41,276 nucleotides of DNA, taken from the IMG/VR virus record IMGVR_UViG_3300042691_018647, positions 1 through 41,276 of that record; one strand, given 5' to 3'. The notes under the pieces were generated by a model that saw only the letters and a program-made list of their open reading frames with translations, did not search any database and was not told where the DNA came from. Both the position numbers and the translations under genes were made by a program. The DNA is from a virus. Shown here piece after piece: positions 1,821-21,750 of the stretch (position 1 is its first letter; each line of letters opens with the position of its first letter).

Positions 1821-3395
<1,575 letters not shown>

Positions 3396-9754: not shown

Positions 9755-10223
9755 TAGCCTTCCCCTTTCCCGAATCCTTGAGCGCGCGGATGGCGTTACG
9801 CACTTCCTCTAAGGCTTCCTCTGCTCGCATAAGACAATCAGTCACTGACTCCGCGCCGTCGCCCTCGTAATAGGCCCAGCATGTCAATTCCGCCGCAATG
9901 CTGCGCAACTTTGCTTCGACCTTAGATTCCGCCTCTTCCAGCGCATCAGCGCGGGCGGTGGCGAGGGCGTCGAGCAACGCCGCGATGTTGTCGGGCGAGC
10001 AGCGGGCGATATGGTCTGCGTCTTCTCTTTCAATATAGACGTATGCGCCGAGGTTGAGGGCCTCGTCTAAAGCCACGACTTCTAAGGGGCTTTTAAATGC
10101 AGGGTGCCAGCGAGTAGATACTATTTCCCGGCCTAAATTCTGAACAACTCGCCACGGCCCCGGCGTTACGCCTTCCAGTCCGGCGCGCAGATCAGCGCGC
10201 AGCTTTTCAACATCAATGGTCAT
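9747..10223 (-). CDS. Ea22-like family protein
   Basis: TPGPW...(test region)...DADHIARCSPDNIAALLDAL is the typical ead/Ea22-like pattern. It is ATGA-coupled to the integrase gene. Confidence 0.75.
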   Translation of the reverse strand: MTIDVEKLRADLRAGLEGVTPGPWRVVQNLGREIVSTRWHPAFKSPLEVVALDEALNLGAYVYIEREDADHIARCSPDNIAALLDALATARADALEEAESKVEAKLRSIAAELTCWAYYEGDGAESVTDCLMRAEEALEEVRNAIRALKDSGKGKAND

Positions 10224-11269
10224 GCTTTCCCCTTATTCCGTTGGTGTTCGTCAAGCCTTGCGATAGCCGCCTCTGCCAGTGCTCGCGTCCGGCTGAGATA
10301 GACCTCTAGAATCCGCGTCGCCGATGCCAGCGAATGGCCGGTGATCGAGCAAATCTCCGGCACGCTGCATCCCGTCTCCGCAAGCATCGTGACTGCGGTG
10401 CCGCGCAGGTCGTGGTAGTGCAGATCGTCCTTGATACCGCTCGCCTCAAATGCCGCTGCCCACGCTTTCTTGAACGCATCGGCGCTCCACGGTCGGCCTG
10501 ACTTGCGCGTGAGGATGTAAAGCCCCCTGCCCTCGATGCCCTCTAGAATGCCCCGCAAAGCCTTCGTGGCGGGGATGTAGATCGCCCTGCGGCGTCGGGC
10601 CTTGGACTGCGTGACGGTCAGCCCCTTGCCGTCCCATGCGGCCCATGTGAGACGCAATAGATCGCCCTGGCGTTGCCCGGTGTGCAAAGCAAGCTGCATC
10701 GCCAATACGATTTCAGCCGGTGCGCTCGCCTCCATTGCCTCGACGTGATGCGGCAGCCAGATCAGGCTGGAGCGGTCCACACGATAGGCGCGCTTGAAGC
10801 CATGAAGCGGATTGTCGGTAATCAATCCACGATCCCGCGCCCATCCTAGAACACGCTGCAAAGCCGCTAATCGAGCATCAGCGGCGCGCGGATATTTCAA
10901 CGCCACACGGTCGCGCCAGTCAAGAAAATCGGCCCTCATTCGCGGATCTGACAGCGCCTCAATCTCGAGCGCTCCGTATTCCTTGCCAACAGCCGCTAGA
11001 TTGATCGCCATTATCGAGCGGGTGCTGTCTCGCAGCGCTGCCCAATCGGAAGACGAGCAAAACCGGTCGATCAAGCGAGCGATGTTGTCAGCGCCTTTGG
11101 GAGCCATTGCAGCTTCTGCCGCGCGCCACGCCTCAACAAACTCGGCGCTGGTCGGGTCGTCTGGCAACCGCGTGCCGGTCGGGCGGTGATAAAAGTGCGT
11201 GCGGGTGCCGCCGTCTGCCAAGCGACGCTTGATCTTGTGTATGTGGCGCAGTCTAGTTACCACGCGCAT
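10220..11269 (-). CDS. int: Tyrosine integrase
   Basis: Catalytic motifs are present: HTGQRQGDL (Arg), HYHDLRGT (His-x-x-Arg), ITGHS (His) and EVYLSRT (Tyr). It is adjacent to attP. Confidence 0.93.
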   Translation of the reverse strand: MRVVTRLRHIHKIKRRLADGGTRTHFYHRPTGTRLPDDPTSAEFVEAWRAAEAAMAPKGADNIARLIDRFCSSSDWAALRDSTRSIMAINLAAVGKEYGALEIEALSDPRMRADFLDWRDRVALKYPRAADARLAALQRVLGWARDRGLITDNPLHGFKRAYRVDRSSLIWLPHHVEAMEASAPAEIVLAMQLALHTGQRQGDLLRLTWAAWDGKGLTVTQSKARRRRAIYIPATKALRGILEGIEGRGLYILTRKSGRPWSADAFKKAWAAAFEASGIKDDLHYHDLRGTAVTMLAETGCSVPEICSITGHSLASATRILEVYLSRTRALAEAAIARLDEHQRNKGKA

Positions 11270-14117: not shown

Positions 14118-14783
14118 TCACCCCGCCATAATCGGGTGGAGAAAGTCTGATGGCTTCGCTGGCCGGTAGATCCGCGTCAGTTCGGCGACGGTCGCGCGGA
14201 CCTCAGCGAGAAACGTGACAACCTCGGCTTCCAGTTCTTCGATCCGCCCTTGATCGCGTTCGACGCGCTTCACGAAGAGGCGCATCTCTTCTGGCATCCT
14301 CGGGTCATACGATACGAAATCGCACCATTTGGCCCCTGTACAGGCCATCTGCCATTGCATCTGCGTGATGTATTTGGCCGGTATCGACTGATCGAGCAGC
14401 GTCTCGATGTGCGTAGCGGTTGAGGGGCATTTGATCTCGACAAGCCCGTCCGGCCCGACAAGGCCATCCGGCGAGGCTCCGGTATCCGCAATCGAGTGAT
14501 GCGGAACGAAGCCGACTTCCTCGACCTCGGCGTCTCGCAGCCATGCATAGGCCGCGCGGGCGTCCGCTTCATTGTCGGAGCCCCATTGCATCGCAGCCGA
14601 TTTGAAACCTTCCGCCAGCACGCCGGTCAGCCTTTCTGCGACCAGCTCGGCGGCGTAGTTGGCGCGGCTCGCGCCCCAGCCGGTTTTCGTACGCGCGATG
14701 ACATCGGCCACGCGAGACGCAGTGACCTTGCCGCAACGGATGGCGAACCATTCCGGCGAGCCTTGAATAATCTGGTCAGCCAT
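14118..14783 (-). CDS. YqaJ / lambda-exonuclease-like PD-(D/E)XK recombination exonuclease
   Basis: GSPEW...R.GK.TAS, PDGLV...GLVEIKCP and QMQWQM are YqaJ-family motifs. It sits directly downstream of ERF. Confidence 0.9.
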   Translation of the reverse strand: MADQIIQGSPEWFAIRCGKVTASRVADVIARTKTGWGASRANYAAELVAERLTGVLAEGFKSAAMQWGSDNEADARAAYAWLRDAEVEEVGFVPHHSIADTGASPDGLVGPDGLVEIKCPSTATHIETLLDQSIPAKYITQMQWQMACTGAKWCDFVSYDPRMPEEMRLFVKRVERDQGRIEELEAEVVTFLAEVRATVAELTRIYRPAKPSDFLHPIMAG

Positions 14784-15680: not shown

Positions 15681-16009
15681 GGCTGGCGGTCCTTGAGGGC
15701 ACGGATTGCGGCGATATAGGCATCCCGGACCTCTGACGTAGACATGTCGTCCAAGTCATTTGCGCCCGTAGCCTCATCTGTCGACGAACTGTGTGCAGCC
15801 CTGACGGCAGAAATTGCATCTTCCAGCGCCTTCGCCCGCGCCGCATCGCGCTCGATCTCCATTCGGATGGCCAGCGCATGCGCTTCCCGCAGCTCTTTTT
15901 CGGCCCTTTCGGCGCGCTCAATGGCGGCGTCTTTCTGCGCCACCTGTTTAGCAAAAGCGCGGCTCAATTTAGAGCTTTCGCTTTCAAACTCCTCATATGG
16001 ATAGCTCAT
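15677..16009 (-). CDS. Coiled-coil hypothetical protein
   Basis: Internal start MSYPYEEFES at 16009. The protein is Ala/Glu/Arg-rich and helical in character. Confidence 0.7.
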   Translation of the reverse strand: MSYPYEEFESESSKLSRAFAKQVAQKDAAIERAERAEKELREAHALAIRMEIERDAARAKALEDAISAVRAAHSSSTDEATGANDLDDMSTSEVRDAYIAAIRALKDRQP

Positions 16010-16083
16010 GACAGCCCCGCTCCGATGAATGTGACGAGAAACACCGCGATGCACGCGGCTAGGCCTTCGATGTGCTCACGCAT
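16006..16083 (-). CDS. 25-aa hydrophobic micro-ORF (MREHIEGLAACIAVFLVTFIGAGLS)
   Basis: It bridges the two flanking genes exactly. Its ATG shares one nt with the upstream TGA (TGATG), and its TGA overlaps the downstream ATG (ATGA). Confidence 0.5.
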   Translation of the reverse strand: MREHIEGLAACIAVFLVTFIGAGLS

Positions 16084-16472
16084 CACGCGGCCTCCGCGTT
16101 CAGCACGGCGCGATCTTCGCGGCGGGTGTCTACGTCAGCTTCGCGGTAGTGCGCCCACGCGGCTTCCTTGATGTATTGGCGCGTGTCGTCGTGGCGCTCG
16201 ACGGTGTGGCTGATAATGTTCGCCGCACTGGAGGATGAGCCGTCTTCGCCCAACGAACCGATGGCGCGAGACTTTGCCAGCCAATAGCCGATGAAGCGTT
16301 TTTCGCGGCTGTCGTAAGCCCGCACGCGAACCTTCTCGATCCACCAATGCAGTTCGTCACCGTCTACCGAATAGCCAATCTCCAATTCGGTTTCGAGATC
16401 GCCGAACTGCAAGTTACCCGGTCCAAGGATCGGGATCATGATTTCAAGATCGAAGCTGTATTCGGTGAGCAT
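16083..16472 (-). CDS. Hypothetical early protein (129 aa)
   Basis: ATG 16472 has GGGGAA upstream (MLTEYSFDLE...). The ORF-track extension to 16688 runs through the hexamer array from a TTG. Confidence 0.75.
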   Translation of the reverse strand: MLTEYSFDLEIMIPILGPGNLQFGDLETELEIGYSVDGDELHWWIEKVRVRAYDSREKRFIGYWLAKSRAIGSLGEDGSSSSAANIISHTVERHDDTRQYIKEAAWAHYREADVDTRREDRAVLNAEAA

Positions 16473-16530
16473 GTCGTTCCCCGTGTTGCATGACGCCACT
16501 GCTGCCGCTCGTAAGCGGCAGGCTGTGGGG

Positions 16531-16674
16531 TCATTCTTCTTGACCGTAGCCGGAGCCGGAGCCGTCGCCGTCGCCGTCGCCGTAGCCGTAGCCGTAGCCG
16601 GAGCCGTCGCCGTAGCCGTAGCCGTAGCCGTAGCTGCCGTAGCCGTAGCCGTAGCCGTCAACCGCGATAGACAT
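16531..16674 (-). CDS. 47-aa Gly-Tyr / Gly-Asp / Gly-Ser dipeptide-repeat peptide, not in the ORF track
   Basis: My translation is MSIAVDGYGYGYGSYGYGYGYGDGSGYGYGYGDGDGDGSGSGYGQEE. ATG 16674 has GGGAAG 6 nt upstream, and there is a second in-frame ATG at 16692. It overlaps the stop of the upstream gene. Confidence 0.45.
   Translation of the reverse strand: MSIAVDGYGYGYGSYGYGYGYGDGSGYGYGYGDGDGDGSGSGYGQEE
16544..16660. repeat. Tandem hexanucleotide array, 19 units CCG(T/G)(A/C)G with one 3-nt interruption
   Basis: Units counted from the sequence: CCGTAG x12, CCGTCG x4 and CCGGAG x3, followed by a terminal degenerate CCGTCA. CTG is inserted at 16634-16636. Confidence 0.95.
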
Positions 16675-16942
16675 TTGCGGCTTCCCAAGCATTGGCGGCG
16701 GCTTCCGCTACGTCTGTGACCGATGTAACTTTTCGGGCTTCGAAAGTTTCGACAGTTGCTCCAATGCGGGCATTCTTAACCGGCCCCTCGCTGGCAAGGC
16801 CAAGAAATCCGCCCTGCTCAGAAGGCCAGTAAATGCAGTTGCGTGCGCGCTTGAGCGTGATCGTGTCGCCGCTCGTGTCGTCGGCATAGCCGAAGAAAAC
16901 GCCGCGATATTCCGTCGTCACAAGAACAGGTCGTTCGGTCAT
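16658..16942 (-). CDS. First gene of the leftward early operon, hypothetical (94 aa)
   Basis: GAGGGA RBS before ATG 16942. It lies downstream of the PL-like promoter. Confidence 0.8.
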   Translation of the reverse strand: MTERPVLVTTEYRGVFFGYADDTSGDTITLKRARNCIYWPSEQGGFLGLASEGPVKNARIGATVETFEARKVTSVTDVAEAAANAWEAANVYRG

Positions 16943-16974
16943 TGGTTTCCCTCATCGCTTCGTGCGATGGGGAT

Positions 16975-17003
16975 ACACTCGCATGTCGCGAGCGCGCCGT
17001 CAA
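16975..17003 (-). promoter_or_regulatory. PL-like early promoter, TTGACG-17 nt-GAGTGT, with an embedded operator
   Basis: On the minus strand the -35 is TTGACG (17003..16998) and the -10 is GAGTGT (16980..16975). The operator at 16978..16992 spans the spacer and the -10. The geometry is the same as the PR-like promoter. Confidence 0.6.
16978..16992. promoter_or_regulatory. Operator-like inverted repeat CTCGCA-TGT-CGCGAG
   Basis: 15-bp dyad related to the sites at 17012 and 17467. Confidence 0.6.
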
Positions 17004-17011
17004 TAGCCTTA

Positions 17012-17026
17012 CTCGCAAAATGTGAG
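17012..17026. promoter_or_regulatory. Operator-like inverted repeat CTCGCA-AAA-TGTGAG
   Basis: Second dyad, 8 nt upstream of the PL-like -35. Confidence 0.55.
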
Positions 17027-17086
17027 CACGTCGAAACGCCGCCGAAACGGCGAGGGAACGCCTGCGAACAATCAGGCAAATTTTAG

Positions 17087-17413
17087 TCAGGCTGCGGTGG
17101 TAATCCGGGCGATAATGGATTCAATGATGGCGCGATCAGCTGGCGAAACGGCGCGCATTCTCTCTTCAAATGTCGGCTGGGCAGGATCGCGCAAAAGATC
17201 AGCCGGTTCGACGCCTAACGCCCATGCAATTTCAGCCATCCAGGCTTCGTTCATCCGACGCTTGCCGTTCTCTAAGTCCGACACGACGCCGCTGGATGTA
17301 TCTAACCGATTAGCTAATTGCGCTTGCGTCAACCCTTTGGCCGCGCGCCATTCGCGCACGAACCAACGAATTGGTTTTGAAGGGCCGATCCTGTCCATGC
17401 CCATTTTTACCAC
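17087..17413 (-). CDS. CI-like XRE-family HTH repressor
   Basis: GLTQAQLANRLDTSSGVVSDLENGKR is an XRE HTH. The gene is divergent from the Cro-like gene and flanked on both sides by the operator dyads. The start could be GTG 17413, ATG 17404 or ATG 17398. Confidence 0.88.
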   Translation of the reverse strand: MVKMGMDRIGPSKPIRWFVREWRAAKGLTQAQLANRLDTSSGVVSDLENGKRRMNEAWMAEIAWALGVEPADLLRDPAQPTFEERMRAVSPADRAIIESIIARITTAA

Positions 17414-17455
17414 GGCGCTATGTACAATGCGTCATCGTGAGTGCGAGTGCCTCTA

Positions 17456-17484
17456 TTGACTGGCAACTCGCATTATGCGAGTAT
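17456..17484 (+). promoter_or_regulatory. PR-like early promoter, TTGACT-17 nt-GAGTAT
   Basis: The -35 is at 17456-17461 and the -10 at 17479-17484. The perfect operator at 17467-17481 lies across the spacer and the -10. The predicted start site falls at about the ATG (17491). Confidence 0.6.
17467..17481. promoter_or_regulatory. Perfect operator dyad CTCGCA-TTA-TGCGAG
   Basis: The two 6-bp arms are exact reverse complements. Confidence 0.7.
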
Positions 17485-17490
17485 CGGTAC

Positions 17491-17706
17491 ATGATGAAAA
17501 ACGTTCTCCGACTTTTCCGAGACAAGCAGGGCTTGAGCCAGCGAGACGCTGCGGCGCTCATTGGCACATCAAGCGGGTATTGGTGCGATCTGGAAACGAG
17601 CCGCCGCGCGCCGTCGCCAAAGCTGGCGATCCGCATTGAGCAAGCGACCGGCATCCCCCGCGAACAACTCCGCCCGGATTTGTACACACGCGAGGCCAGC
17701 CAATGA
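17491..17706 (+). CDS. Cro-like XRE HTH protein (71 aa)
   Basis: GLSQRDAAALIGTSSGYWCDLETSRR is an HTH. ATG 17491 has no obvious SD. The ORF-track 17371 start lies inside the repressor gene. Confidence 0.85.
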   Translation: MMKNVLRLFRDKQGLSQRDAAALIGTSSGYWCDLETSRRAPSPKLAIRIEQATGIPREQLRPDLYTREASQ

Positions 17707-21156: not shown

Positions 21157-21750
21157 ATGAGCGTCGGCGCGCTGATTGCAGACATGGTTCGTGCTGGTGT
21201 CGATCCCGATCTGATCGGGCGCACGGCTGAACTATTGGCCGCGCGTGAAGCCGTCACTGTAAAGGACGAACAAGCCGAACGTCGCCGCGCCGCTGACCGC
21301 GAAAGAAAGGCATTCCGCAGAATTCCGCAGAATTCCGCAGAAGCCCCTTCCCCCTTGTTTCCCCCTTCTTTCCTTCCCCCTGAAACCCCTAACCAATCAA
21401 CCCCCTATAATCCCCCTTCCGATGGTTTGGGCGCGCTGACGCTCGCCCCGCCAAAACCCGAAAAGCCAAAGAAACCAAAAGCGCCATCAAACGACGATCA
21501 GGTTCTCGACAAGCTGACGGATGCTCTGATGCCGGATACGGCTCGTGCGCTGATGGACCACCGGAAGCGGCTCGGAAAGCCTCTCACACCGAAAGCCGCT
21601 GAACTCATCGCCCGCGACATTTTGAAACTTCCTGCCGCCGAGTGGGAGGCGGCGGCGGAAATGATGATTGCTCGTGGCTGGCAGGGTTTCAACGTCGATT
21701 GGTACCGGAACGCAACGCAACCACGCCAGAATTTGAGATTTGGAGCCTGA
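21157..21750 (+). CDS. Hypothetical replication-module protein with an internal repeat/linker
   Basis: 197-aa ORF. It has two helical ends joined by a Pro-rich linker encoded by the 10-bp repeats and the polypyrimidine tract. Confidence 0.75.
   Translation: MSVGALIADMVRAGVDPDLIGRTAELLAAREAVTVKDEQAERRRAADRERKAFRRIPQNSAEAPSPLFPPSFLPPETPNQSTPYNPPSDGLGALTLAPPKPEKPKKPKAPSNDDQVLDKLTDALMPDTARALMDHRKRLGKPLTPKAAELIARDILKLPAAEWEAAAEMMIARGWQGFNVDWYRNATQPRQNLRFGA
21312..21341. repeat. 3 x 10-bp perfect tandem repeat (ATTCCGCAGA)
   Basis: Read directly: cattccgcag aattccgcag aattccgcag a. It is followed by an ~80-nt C/T-rich tract (21343-21420). Confidence 0.9.

What the first reader, a model, noticed from the sequence alone, without database searches (positions are those of the whole stretch)
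16531..16692. Hexanucleotide microsatellite in the early operon that can encode a Gly-Tyr/Gly-Asp/Gly-Ser dipeptide-repeat peptide
Positions 16544-16660 hold 19 contiguous CCG(T/G)(A/C)G units with one 3-nt interruption, just after the first gene of the PL-like operon.

Gly-Tyr frame. On the coding (minus) strand one frame has ATG codons at 16674 and 16692. The 16674 start has GGGAAG 6 nt upstream. This frame reads MSIAVDGYGYGYGSYGYGYGYGDGSGYGYGYGDGDGDGSGSGYGQEE and stops at 16531. An 8-bp hairpin follows at 16502-16521. At 47 aa it falls below the ORF-track cutoff.

Thr-Ala frame. The ORF track instead fuses a Thr-Ala repeat reading of the same DNA to the downstream gene. That reading has no ATG; its only start is a TTG inside the upstream gene. 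The downstream gene also has its own ATG (16472) and RBS.

Caveat. The Tyr-to-Asp unit variants are synonymous (GCT/GCG) in the Thr-Ala frame, so the frame cannot be settled by eye.

I know of no described phage early function for a (GY)n peptide. A DNA-level role, as a contiguous short-repeat protein-binding array, is equally open.
Basis: partly seen in the sequence, partly recalled or inferred. Interest (0 to 1): 0.78.

Follow-up and report, generated by a model that had tools for sequence, protein, structure and literature searches.

The report
Hypervariable Gly-Tyr repeat phage early protein
The six-base repeat is the coding sequence of a tiny acidic protein made of Gly-Tyr/Gly-Asp/Gly-Ser pairs; it always sits just after (or is fused to) a small beta-barrel protein, DUF6948, in thousands of phage genomes, changes length faster than anything around it, and neither its function nor the gene pair has been described.

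Summary
TRF finds a 6-nt array at 16544-16658 with 19.7 copies.

**Reading frame.** Only the Gly-Tyr frame is conserved.
- A G-[Y/D/S/N] repeat ORF follows every one of 27 IMG/VR DUF6948 loci, and 16 of 18 in reference genomes.
- It survives changes of Gly and Tyr codons (GGG, GGA, TAT) that rewrite the other two frames.
- In relatives it runs in frame into folded domains.
- In 38/38 loci it starts at an ATG/GTG with a Shine-Dalgarno-like motif overlapping the end of DUF6948. The control frame does so in 1/38.
- DUF6948 and the repeat also occur fused in one polypeptide, in both orders.

**Cultured phages.** Rhodobacter RcapNL (gp47/gp46) and 115 Rheinheimera Barba isolates (gp018/gp017) carry the pair. 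In four Barba isolates compared, the flanks are 99.7-100% identical while the repeat ORF is 69, 71, 79 or 83 aa. Published RNA-seq places both Barba genes in the early cluster.

**What is excluded.** The Thr-Ala fusion and a DNA-level binding array are rejected.

**Function (inferred, not shown).** The product is probably a disordered Tyr/Asp-rich tail or scaffold working with a predicted Sm-like barrel. I found no literature or curated family describing it.

The parts
16544..16660 (-). Hexanucleotide array: 19 units of GGC-TAC / GGC-GAC / GGC-TCC on the coding strand, with one 3-nt AGC insertion
   Evidence: TRF period 6, 19.7 copies, score 160. Sequence read directly.
16531..16674 (-). Gly-X repeat gene: 47 aa, MSIAVD-(G[YDS])n-GQEE, stop TGA at 16533-16531. 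Net charge -7, pI about 4, no Lys or Arg.
   Evidence: - ORF list.
- Gene callers chose this frame on identical-flank contigs.
- Homologous ORFs in 27/27 and 16/18 DUF6948 loci.
- Codon evidence for the frame.
- Composition.
16681..16686 (-). Shine-Dalgarno-like GGGAAG, 6 nt upstream of ATG 16674. It is encoded by the conserved Trp-Glu codons at the C-terminus of DUF6948.
   Evidence: Sequence. In 38/38 related loci an SD-like motif plus ATG/GTG lies in the Gly-Tyr frame at the DUF6948 stop, against 1/38 in the control frame.
16675..16692 (-). Optional upstream extension (ATG 16692, MLGKPQ). Probably not used.
   Evidence: Not conserved in the closest relatives, which start at the position equivalent to 16674, once with GTG.
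16658..16942 (-). Partner gene: DUF6948 protein, 94 aa. Its last 17 nt overlap the start of the repeat gene. Predicted small beta-barrel with a C-terminal helix.
   Evidence: - Pfam PF22253, E 4.3e-21, 75 bits against a 27-bit cutoff.
- AF2 model, pLDDT 82.5.
- Foldseek top 50 PDB hits are all Sm/LSm, E from 4e-3, TM up to 0.70.
16502..16521 (-). 8-bp GC-rich hairpin (loop TACG), 10 nt after the stop of the repeat gene. No U-tract.
   Evidence: Fold -30.8 kcal/mol, z -4.0 for 16465-16540. Not scored as a terminator. Role untested.
16083..16472 (-). Next gene in the operon (129 aa, own ATG and GGGGAA ribosome-binding site). Not part of the conserved pair.
   Evidence: ORF. No relatives next to DUF6948 in viral contigs. 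No family hits.

Best explanation
**Shown**

The array is protein-coding in the Gly-Tyr frame. It encodes a 47-aa acidic (Gly-X)n protein, with X = Tyr, Asp or Ser, running from ATG 16674 to TGA 16531. This is the second gene of a conserved two-gene early cassette. The first gene is DUF6948, a predicted small Sm/SH3-like beta-barrel. The repeat gene starts inside the last codons of DUF6948, at an SD-like motif supplied by DUF6948's conserved Trp-Glu codons. The two are therefore very likely translationally coupled.

The array changes by gain, loss and reshuffling of whole 6-nt units. I infer the mechanism to be replication slippage or unequal recombination. Length and unit order thus diverge between otherwise identical genomes while the frame is kept. 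Homologues in a cultured phage are transcribed early.

**Inferred**

The product is an intrinsically disordered tail. Tyr residues act as stickers and Gly/Ser/Asp as spacers, usually ending in an acidic tip (QEE here). It works together with the DUF6948 barrel. In some lineages it is covalently attached, here it acts in trans.

The nearest analogies are the Gly-rich tails of SSB, Hfq, Sm proteins and plant GR-RBPs. On that model it would tune the barrel's nucleic-acid or partner binding, or its multivalent self-association. Repeat number would set valency.
For: **Frame**
- G-[YDSN] ORFs follow DUF6948 in 27/27 IMG/VR loci and 16/18 genome loci.
- Arrays built on GGG, GGA or TAT/GAT/TCT keep the same peptide but change the other two frames.
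- Barba isolates show synonymous GGA, GGT and TAT inside the array.
- The frame continues into C-terminal or N-terminal domains in relatives.

**Coupling**
- 38/38 loci have an SD-like motif plus ATG/GTG at the DUF6948 stop, against 1/38 in the control frame.

**Functional link**
- Single-chain fusions exist in three architectures: DUF6948-GY, GY-DUF6948 and TIGR02996-GY-DUF6948.
- In the reverse test, 58 of 70 assessable GY ORFs found by DNA pattern alone have a DUF6948-superfamily gene upstream or fused. The divergent branch is confirmed by hhalign at 95.2% probability, E 2.5e-8.

**Hypervariability**
- Window-identical flanks carry arrays of 117, 306, 318 and >390 nt.
- Identical DUF6948 proteins are followed by ORFs of 80, 82, 85 and 120 aa.
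- Barba isolates have ORFs of 69, 71, 79 and 83 aa with flanks 314-315/315 and 210/210 nt identical.

**Expression**
- Barba18A gp018 and gp017 fall in the early RNA-seq cluster (PMC9305737 Tables S2/S3).

**Selection on X**
- X is Y 42%, D 26%, S 19%, N 6%. The other one-step neighbours of TAC are rare: F 1.6%, H 0.6%, C 0.2%.

**Fold of the partner**
- AF2 pLDDT 82.5. Foldseek hits are Sm/LSm and phage 'Sm-like' proteins.

**Physical plausibility of Tyr-driven association**
- Synthetic GYGYGYG peptides self-assemble (PMC8163036, PMC11093263).
- Plant GR-RBPs use a Gly/Tyr-rich tail next to an RNA-binding domain (PMC4117745).
Against: - There is no direct evidence of translation, of a DUF6948-repeat protein contact, or of nucleic-acid binding by DUF6948.
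- The Sm-like assignment rests on a predicted model and modest Foldseek scores (E about 4e-3). DUF6948 has a C-terminal rather than an N-terminal helix, and no Sm sequence motif was detected.
- C-terminal tips are not uniform across the family. Among 176 classifiable tails, 31 are acidic, 18 basic, 77 neutral or absent, and 50 are regions longer than 12 aa.
- The repeat also links other domains: DUF7666, a 'GAC' domain and a 190-aa unknown domain. It may be a generic linker rather than a DUF6948-specific tail.
- About 12 of 70 GY ORFs had no detectable DUF6948 neighbour.
- AF2 on a fusion protein without an alignment was uninformative, pLDDT 34.
- One relative, L056 (a contig of unverified assembly method), has the frame broken within the array.
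Confidence: 0.5

Rival explanations
1. Self-assembling scaffold. The (Gly-Tyr)n protein forms cross-beta fibrils, gels or liquid condensates through Tyr stacking, and Asp runs keep it soluble or make it ion- or pH-responsive. DUF6948 would be a client or nucleator. Repeat number would tune the assembly threshold.
For: - Synthetic GYGYGYG, SYSYSYS and NYNYNYN heptapeptides assemble into amyloid-like fibrils (PMC8163036, PMC11093263).
- Strict Gly-X alternation with 42% Tyr.
- Stand-alone versions with no folded domain are common.
- Sm-like partner, as in eukaryotic RNP-granule proteins (the comparison is from my own knowledge).
Against: - No experimental data on any family member.
- High Asp content and net charge -7 in 47 aa oppose aggregation.
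- Arrays also serve as connectors between folded domains.
Confidence: 0.15
2. Passive flexible linker. The repeat is only a spacer. The window's 47-aa version is then a domain-less remnant, or a minimal leader-plus-tail whose length is effectively neutral.
For: The repeat joins many unrelated domains in either order. Extreme length tolerance.
Against: - Domain-less versions are retained in many divergent lineages, including cultured phages, always with a coupled start.
- X is restricted to Y, D, S and N rather than drifting.
- A neutral spacer need not keep 40% Tyr.
Confidence: 0.15
3. Host-directed decoy or mimic. The acidic, aromatic repeat could imitate nucleic acid, as acidic DNA-mimic anti-restriction proteins do. 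It could instead imitate the Tyr-Gly clusters that bacterial tyrosine kinases phosphorylate, thereby titrating a host factor early in infection.
For: - Early expression and position at the head of the early-left operon of a temperate phage.
- Strongly acidic, Tyr-rich composition.
- Rapid diversification is typical of arms-race genes.
- The resemblance to kinase Tyr clusters is from memory only.
Against: - No hit to any anti-defence or defence model.
- Does not explain the obligate link and fusions with DUF6948.
- Some relatives have basic tails.
Confidence: 0.1
4. DNA- or RNA-level element. The hexamer array is a protein-binding or recombination-prone repeat, for example bound by an early phage protein, and the ORF is incidental.
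For: Perfectly phased short repeats. Arrays are homogenised within each genome, which shows active DNA-level turnover. Assemblies break there.
Against: - Different lineages use GGG, GGA, GGT and TAT, GAT, TCT yet keep the same amino acids.
- All 38 loci tested have an ATG/GTG with an SD-like motif in this frame. The stop shortly after the array was seen by inspection in the domain-less relatives.
- In-frame fusion to protein domains.
- Length changes are multiples of 3.
- No Rfam match.
Confidence: 0.03
5. Thr-Ala reading. The array is the N-terminal extension of the downstream 129-aa gene (ORF 16688..16083).
For: The frame is open from a TTG at 16688 through to the downstream gene.
Against: - The downstream gene has its own ATG and ribosome-binding site, and it is not conserved next to the array.
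- In relatives the second frame reads Gly-Thr, Asp-Thr or Ala-Met, and a different frame happens to run into the next gene.
- Gene callers on identical contigs call the 129-aa gene alone.
Confidence: 0.01

Closest known systems
Gly-rich disordered tails of small nucleic-acid-binding domains: E. coli SSB linker plus acidic tip, Hfq C-terminal domain (Gly-rich in Acinetobacter), Sm protein RG tails, plant GR-RBPs (RRM plus Gly/Tyr-rich region, PMC4117745)
   Same: - A small barrel or RNA-binding domain combined with a long Gly-rich low-complexity region.
- Often an acidic tip (QEE, EEE, DDDE).
- Location in an early replication/recombination operon.
- Covalent barrel-plus-tail versions exist in this family.
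   Different: - Here the tail is usually a separate, translationally coupled polypeptide.
- Strict Gly-X dipeptide periodicity with Tyr/Asp/Ser.
- Extreme copy-number instability.
- DUF6948 is not an OB fold, and it is not a sequence member of Sm or Hfq.
- No SSB-type DDDIPF tip.
FUS-family / prion-like low-complexity domains with [G/S]Y[G/S] motifs, and synthetic prion-inspired GYGYGYG peptides (PMC8163036)
   Same: A high density of Tyr flanked by Gly or Ser. Polar composition with few hydrophobic residues. The synthetic GYGYGYG peptide is literally a fragment of this protein.
   Different: A bacterial virus context. Much more Asp, almost no Gln, no Arg partner domain. A perfectly periodic DNA repeat. 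No assembly has been demonstrated.
Silk fibroin-type (Gly-X)n repeats
   Same: Strict alternation of Gly with a small set of X residues that includes Ser and Tyr.
   Different: X is Tyr/Asp/Ser/Asn rather than Ala/Ser. Acidic, cytoplasmic and small. No evidence of beta-sheet crystallites.
Simple-sequence contingency loci (phase-variable repeats in bacterial and phage genes)
   Same: A tandem short repeat inside a gene that mutates by slippage far faster than its flanks.
   Different: The unit is 6 nt. Changes therefore alter length and valency, not reading frame, and there is no on/off switching.
Gly/Tyr-rich structural proteins that share the composition and account for database labels: keratin-associated proteins, lamprin, sulfur globule proteins
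   Same: Composition. Weak Pfam hits to KRTAP, SGP and TrAA12. A GenBank 'lamprin' label on one homologue.
   Different: Most hits are below the curated cutoffs, and the only one above (TrAA12, 32.6 bits on the L029 protein) lies wholly within the repeat. There is no homology. These are extracellular or structural proteins of unrelated organisms.

Membership tests
Pfam DUF6948 (PF22253), the partner gene | Match to the family HMM above the gathering score | tested here: met
   94-aa protein at 16942..16658: E 4.3e-21, 75.3 bits against a 27-bit cutoff, covering profile positions 2-85 of 85.
DUF6948 + (Gly-X)n cassette (defined in this report, not a named family) | A G-[Y/D/S/N] repeat ORF immediately downstream of, and overlapping, a DUF6948-superfamily gene, with its own SD-like motif and start codon | tested here: met
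   Window: ATG 16674 lies 17 nt before the end of DUF6948, with GGGAAG 6 nt upstream. The same layout occurs in 38/38 relatives.
Sm / LSm / Hfq | Sm fold: N-terminal helix followed by five bent strands | tested here: inconclusive
   The AF2 model has five strands but a C-terminal helix. The Foldseek top 50 are all Sm/LSm, yet E is only 4e-3 to 2e-2 and TM 0.44-0.70.
Sm / LSm / Hfq | Sequence membership (Sm1/Sm2 motifs, LSM or Hfq HMM) | tested here: not met
   No LSM or Hfq Pfam or NCBIfam hit. No PDB sequence hit with the family profile.
Sm / LSm / Hfq | Ring oligomer that binds RNA | not testable with these tools
   Needs multimer modelling or biochemistry.
SSB (OB fold + Gly-rich linker + acidic tip) | SSB/OB-fold domain | tested here: not met
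   No SSB Pfam hit on DUF6948. tblastn of E. coli SSB finds nothing significant anywhere in the window.
SSB (OB fold + Gly-rich linker + acidic tip) | Gly-rich disordered region ending in an acidic tip | tested here: met
   40% Gly, ends GQEE, net charge -7. This is an analogy only. The conserved D-D-D-I-P-F tip is absent.
FUS-like / prion-like low-complexity domain | Dense [G/S]-Y-[G/S] motifs in a polar low-complexity region | tested here: met
   11 Tyr in 47 aa, each flanked by Gly or Ser.
FUS-like / prion-like low-complexity domain | Reversible self-assembly or phase separation | not testable with these tools
   Only synthetic GYGYGYG data exist (PMC8163036).
Phase-variable contingency locus | Repeat-number change shifts the reading frame or promoter spacing, giving on/off switching | tested here: not met
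   The unit is 6 nt. The observed differences of 189, 201, 6, 30 and 42 nt are all multiples of 3.
DNA-binding iteron/operator array | The nucleotide motif itself is conserved among relatives | tested here: not met
   The motif changes to GGGTAC, GGATAC or GGCTAT among relatives while the peptide is kept.
RTX-type Ca-binding Gly-Asp repeats | Nonapeptide GGxGxDxUx periodicity | tested here: not met
   The period is 2 residues (6 nt). No RTX/HemolysinCabind Pfam hit.
Keratin-associated protein / lamprin / sulfur globule protein | HMM match above the curated cutoff | tested here: not met
   - KRTAP 15-16 bits against a 21.1-bit cutoff.
- SGP 16.2 against 26.7.
- TrAA12 scores 14.7-28.2 bits for all other proteins tested (cutoff 30.9); the L029 protein scores 32.6 bits, E 3.7e-8, above it.
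- That match, like the others, lies only within the repeat region (residues 58-110), so it reflects composition, not homology.

The most novel reading that the evidence does not exclude
Phages encode a minimal condensate or fibril module. It would consist of an Sm-like barrel (DUF6948) and a separately translated, FUS-like (Gly-Tyr/Asp/Ser)n sticker-spacer protein. Valency would be retuned continually by in-frame slippage of a 6-nt repeat. Early in infection the pair would organise phage RNA or recombination intermediates into a membraneless compartment. Repeat-number polymorphism would adapt its assembly threshold to host or environment.
Probability: 0.15. Interest if true: 0.9.

Novelty: categorically new. 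Interest (0 to 1): 0.72.

Why it matters
**Scale and neglect.** The finding turns an apparent intergenic microsatellite into a real, widespread and undescribed phage gene family.
- DUF6948 relatives form 2394 clusters at 90% identity.
- They form 921 clusters at 50% identity.
- The exact repeat pattern occurs in at least 120 IMG/VR contigs.

**Annotation consequences.**
- The gene is missed, called 'hypothetical' or mislabelled 'lamprin'.
- The repeat protein has no Lys or Arg, so standard tryptic proteomics would be expected to miss it (my inference).
- The array breaks short-read assemblies. Most contigs carrying the partner gene are under 2 kb.

**Biology.**
- It is a natural example of a strictly periodic dipeptide-repeat protein kept by selection while its length mutates faster than any flanking base.
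- It comes with ready experimental systems: Rhodobacter phage RcapNL, and the 115-isolate Rheinheimera Barba collection, which already has RNA-seq data.
- If the Tyr-rich tail modulates an Sm-like barrel or drives assembly, it would be a simple prokaryotic-virus counterpart of eukaryotic low-complexity RNP biology.

Tried and rejected
**Searches that found nothing**
- Nucleotide search of the locus against cultured phages gave no match.
- tblastn of the window's own DUF6948 against cultured phages gave no match. Only divergent family members found cultured phages.
- phmmer with the 47-aa peptide found nothing, because composition correction removes it.
- Pfam, PHROGs, NCBIfam and PADLOC on the repeat proteins gave no family assignment. 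Hits to TrAA12, KRTAP, SGP and phrog_18306 lie only within the repeat region and reflect composition; one TrAA12 hit (32.6 bits, L029 protein) exceeds its 30.9-bit cutoff.
- PDB sequence searches for DUF6948 and for the 190-aa C-terminal domain of relatives found nothing.
- Rfam on 16000-17600 gave only a chance miRNA hit at E 0.2.
- Literature searches for DUF6948, DUF7666, GYGDGYG and glycine-tyrosine plus bacteriophage found nothing on phage proteins.

**Ideas tested and dropped**
- Readthrough of the DUF6948 TGA into the Leu-Arg frame would give an Arg-rich tail like SmD1. I rejected it because the frame relation between DUF6948 and the array differs between subfamilies (+1 here, -1 in most).
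- Programmed frameshifting to fuse DUF6948 with the repeat. No slippery site is visible, and a conserved start codon with an SD-like motif is present in 38/38 loci. It is not strictly excluded.
- My first narrow HMM suggested most pattern-found GY ORFs lack DUF6948. That was an artefact of the narrow profile. It was corrected by iteration and profile-profile comparison. Only 5 of 25 divergent sequences reach the Pfam model itself.

**Uninformative**
- AF2 of a DUF6948-GY fusion without an alignment gave pLDDT 34.
Full report
**1. The observation**

Tandem Repeats Finder reports one outstanding array in the window: 16544-16658, period 6, 19.7 copies, consensus CCGTAG, score 160. On the minus strand the units are GGC-TAC, GGC-GAC and GGC-TCC, with a single extra AGC.

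- a 53-aa ORF at 16692..16531;
- an internal ATG at 16674, preceded by GGGAAG (16686-16681) six bases upstream;
- the stop TGA at 16533-16531;
- a TTG-initiated Thr-Ala ORF at 16688..16083;
- the downstream ATG at 16472.

The hairpin at 16521-16502 is real and part of a stable fold of -30.8 kcal/mol, z -4.0. It has no U-tract and is not scored as a terminator.

**2. Context**

Genes on the minus strand run in this order:

| Gene | Coordinates | Evidence |
|---|---|---|
| HTH regulator | 17413..17087 | Pfam HTH families |
| DUF6948 | 16942..16658 | PF22253, E 4e-21 |
| Repeat ORF | 16674..16531 | this report |
| Three small ORFs | between | no family hits |
| ERF recombinase | | Pfam ERF |
| YqaJ exonuclease | 14783..14118 | Pfam YqaJ |
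| HNH endonuclease | | Pfam HNH |
| Integrase | 11269..10220 | Pfam Phage_integrase |

A second HTH gene is divergently transcribed. This is the early-left operon of a temperate phage, so 'PL-like' is a fair description. A tblastn search with E. coli SSB found no canonical SSB anywhere in the window.

**3. Near-identical genomes**

Exact-protein look-ups found metagenome contigs whose 440 nt upstream and 461 nt downstream are 100% identical to the window. Their arrays differ: 306 nt (L004), 318 nt (L002) and more than 390 nt (L009), against 117 nt here.

All differences are multiples of three. The arrays share their first and last blocks and differ internally. Gene callers on those contigs chose the Gly-Tyr frame.

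Many contigs end inside the array, so it breaks short-read assemblies. The window's short array could therefore itself be an assembly collapse.

**4. Which frame is used**

I fetched 27 IMG/VR loci encoding DUF6948 homologues at 48-72% identity. Every one has a G-[Y/D/S/N/H] repeat ORF immediately downstream. In one-genome-per-species bacterial and archaeal contigs, 16 of 18 do. One more is masked at that spot and one lacks it.

Four lines of evidence fix the frame.

*(i) Codons.* Most arrays use GGC-TAC. Some are built entirely on GGG (L023, L030, L052), on GGA (L036), or on TAT/GAT/TCT (L025, L038). These keep Gly-Tyr/Asp/Ser but turn the second frame into Gly-Thr, Asp-Thr or Ala-Met, and the third into Val-Arg, Ile-Arg or Leu-Trp.

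*(ii) Attached domains.* In relatives the Gly-Tyr frame runs without a stop into conserved domains. These include a DUF7666-like domain on either side, a 'VTVVDVLDAGAC' N-domain and a 'HLGACSEA' N-domain.

*(iii) Start signals.* In 38 of 38 loci an ATG or GTG in this frame lies between -30 and +15 nt of the DUF6948 stop. An SD-like motif sits 4-16 nt upstream and the frame is open to the array. The control frame does this in 1 of 38. The SD-like TGGGAG is encoded by the nearly invariant Trp-Glu at the C-terminus of DUF6948. This arrangement implies translational coupling. The closest relatives start MSTAGN, MSTVVD, MSIADSD or VSTAGN, which identifies 16674 rather than 16692 as the start here.

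*(iv) The other frames.* The downstream 129-aa gene is not conserved next to the array. In L028 it is the Leu-Arg frame, not Thr-Ala, that happens to stay open into the next gene.

The Thr-Ala fusion and a DNA-level array are therefore rejected.

**5. Link to DUF6948**

I also searched in the reverse direction.

A narrow DUF6948 profile at first suggested that few of these had the partner. One such ORF (L071) then proved to be a bona fide DUF6948 domain (Pfam E 3e-23) fused in frame to the repeat.

After iterating the profile, 58 of 70 assessable repeat ORFs have a DUF6948-superfamily gene directly upstream or fused. The divergent branch ('IVVLDRGWVFVGDV...WGTTKGLGEL') is outside the Pfam model; only 5 of 25 divergent sequences match it. 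It aligns to DUF6948 by profile-profile comparison at 95.2% probability, E 2.5e-8.

A protein search seeded with the fusion recovered many single-chain architectures:
- DUF6948-GY: P0121, P0137, P0163-P0165;
- GY-DUF6948: P0162, P0166, P0214, P0220, P0368;
- TIGR02996-GY-DUF6948: P0168, P0171, P0181, P0226, with TIGR02996 confirmed at E 1e-13.

Recurrent fusion in both orders is classical evidence that the two parts work together.

The same repeat also connects other modules: DUF7666, a 'GAC' domain and a 190-aa unknown domain behind an 'MTLDEKIKAFL' leader. It is therefore a reusable low-complexity module and not exclusive to DUF6948.

**6. Cultured phages and expression**

Divergent queries found the pair in isolates:
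- Rhodobacter phage RcapNL: gp47 plus gp46 (75 aa, GY/GD), downstream of the repressor.
- 115 Rheinheimera Barba isolates: gp018 plus gp017 (69 aa, GN/GY/GD).
- A spring-water phage genome in which the repeat ORF is annotated 'lamprin'.

Among the Barba isolates the matched region is 792, 798, 822 or 834 nt long. Fetching four of them shows the following:
- the DUF6948-like gene is 314-315/315 nt identical;
- the next gene is 210/210 nt identical;
- the repeat ORF is 69, 71, 79 or 83 aa, with reshuffled units and synonymous GGA, GGT and TAT variants.

This is genuine in-frame hypervariability in individually sequenced isolates, not an assembly effect.

Published RNA-seq of Barba18A lists gp018 and gp017 in cluster 1, the early genes. 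Log-cpm falls from 13.0 to 11.5 for gp018 and from 10.1 to 8.5 for gp017 (PMC9305737 Tables S2 and S3). Gene identities were checked. Neither Barba paper discusses these genes.

**7. Properties of the product**

The window peptide has G19, Y11, S5, D5 and E2. It has no Lys or Arg, a net charge of -7 and a pI of about 4.

Across 200 distinct arrays, X is Tyr 42%, Asp 26%, Ser 19% and Asn 6%. The other one-step neighbours of TAC are rare: Phe 1.6%, His 0.6%, Cys 0.2%. That sample is biased by the search pattern. The same residues nevertheless dominate in lineages with different codons, which indicates selection for polar or acidic residues plus Tyr.

Each genome's array is codon-homogeneous. Arrays are therefore continually regenerated from a few units. 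Replication slippage or unequal recombination is my inferred mechanism.

C-terminal tips are often acidic (QEE, EEE, DDDE, GEE), but some subfamilies end in basic tails.

**8. The partner**

AlphaFold2 with 46 homologues gives a confident small barrel of five strands and a C-terminal helix, pLDDT 82.5.

Foldseek against the PDB returns only Sm/LSm proteins in the top 50, with modest scores: E from 4e-3, TM up to 0.70. Against BFVD it returns other DUF6948 proteins, the Barba protein and a cyanophage 'Sm-like domain' protein.

There is no sequence-level membership in Sm, Hfq or SSB. I treat 'Sm-like small barrel, possibly nucleic-acid binding' as a lead, not a result.

**9. Most likely mechanism**

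Shown:
- a coding, translationally coupled, early-transcribed, hypervariable (Gly-X)n protein;
- a genetic link to DUF6948.

Inferred: it is a disordered Tyr-sticker and Gly/Ser/Asp-spacer tail that acts with the barrel, in cis in fusion lineages and in trans here. It would act like the Gly-rich tails of SSB, Hfq, Sm proteins or plant GR-RBPs (PMC4117745). It would tune binding or multivalent association, with repeat number setting valency.

The fact that synthetic GYGYGYG peptides self-assemble makes a scaffold or condensate role physically plausible (PMC8163036, PMC11093263).

The rivals are a passive linker, a decoy or mimic, and pure self-assembly. None can be excluded by computation. I put about 0.95 on the coding and cassette conclusions and about 0.35 on the tail mechanism.

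**10. Novelty**

No curated family covers the repeat protein in Pfam, PHROGs, NCBIfam or PADLOC. DUF6948 and DUF7666 have no literature in the library searched, and no paper prints such a phage sequence.

DUF6948 relatives number 2394 clusters at 90% identity and 921 at 50% identity. This is a large, overlooked family. Its repeat partner is systematically mis-annotated or lost at contig ends.

Noticed in passing
window 16502-16521 (minus strand), wider fold 16465-16540: A very stable hairpin lies directly after the repeat gene and before the next ribosome-binding site: -30.8 kcal/mol, z -4, none of 200 shuffles as stable. It has no U-tract. It could be an attenuator, an RNase site or an mRNA stabiliser in the early-left operon.
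   Followed up: partly
window 2733-3334 (plus strand, inside ORF 1821..3395): Several GGC/GGT triplet and 9-18-nt Gly-rich tandem repeats lie inside a 524-aa ORF. This is a different kind of Gly-rich protein, possibly structural, and is unrelated to the Gly-Tyr array.
   Followed up: no
window 21312-21373: Two adjacent perfect or near-perfect direct repeats: ATTCCGCAGA x3.1 at 100% identity, and an 11-mer x2.4. They lie in the rightward early region and might be iterons or an origin.
   Followed up: no
L001 1-170: One contig has downstream sequence identical to the window, but a different region runs in frame into the Gly-Tyr array (PGGPVSDALLQRLRREAL...) in place of DUF6948. This is either a chimeric assembly or another N-terminal module fused to the repeat.
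   Followed up: no
L063 2328-3442 (minus strand): Four tandem paralogous small genes, each with the leader MKEKHNMNNNG followed by a Gly-Asn/Tyr/His/Arg repeat. No DUF6948 neighbour was detected.
   Followed up: no
L077, L088, L089, L108, L114, L115, L119, L138; P0217, P0176: A recurrent architecture: a leader (MTLDEKIKAFL...), then a Gly-Tyr array, then a conserved domain of about 190 aa (IDG..T.I...GN.A.G...PCYIVKQ..FAHG.T.REA...WHHRLTGSC..GR..FA.DHG). The domain has no Pfam or PDB match.
   Followed up: partly
P0168, P0171, P0181, P0226, P0178: A TIGR02996 'repeat-companion' N-domain (LVYADWLDExGD) is joined by a Gly-Tyr array to DUF6948. This connects the phage cassette to an enigmatic domain known mainly from Planctomycetes and Myxobacteria.
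   Followed up: partly
L056 6266-6523: In one contig the Gly-Tyr frame slips into the Thr-Ala/Ser-Ala frame midway through the array. This may be an assembly or sequencing indel error (I did not verify how the contig was assembled), but it is the only broken example seen.
   Followed up: no
window, whole: tblastn with E. coli SSB detects no canonical SSB gene, although the operon has an ERF recombinase and a YqaJ exonuclease. I did not test whether DUF6948 plus the repeat protein substitutes for SSB.
   Followed up: partly
(contig length distributions): Most public contigs carrying these DUF6948 proteins are under 2 kb and stop at the array. The repeat systematically fragments short-read metagenome assemblies of these phages.
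   Followed up: partly
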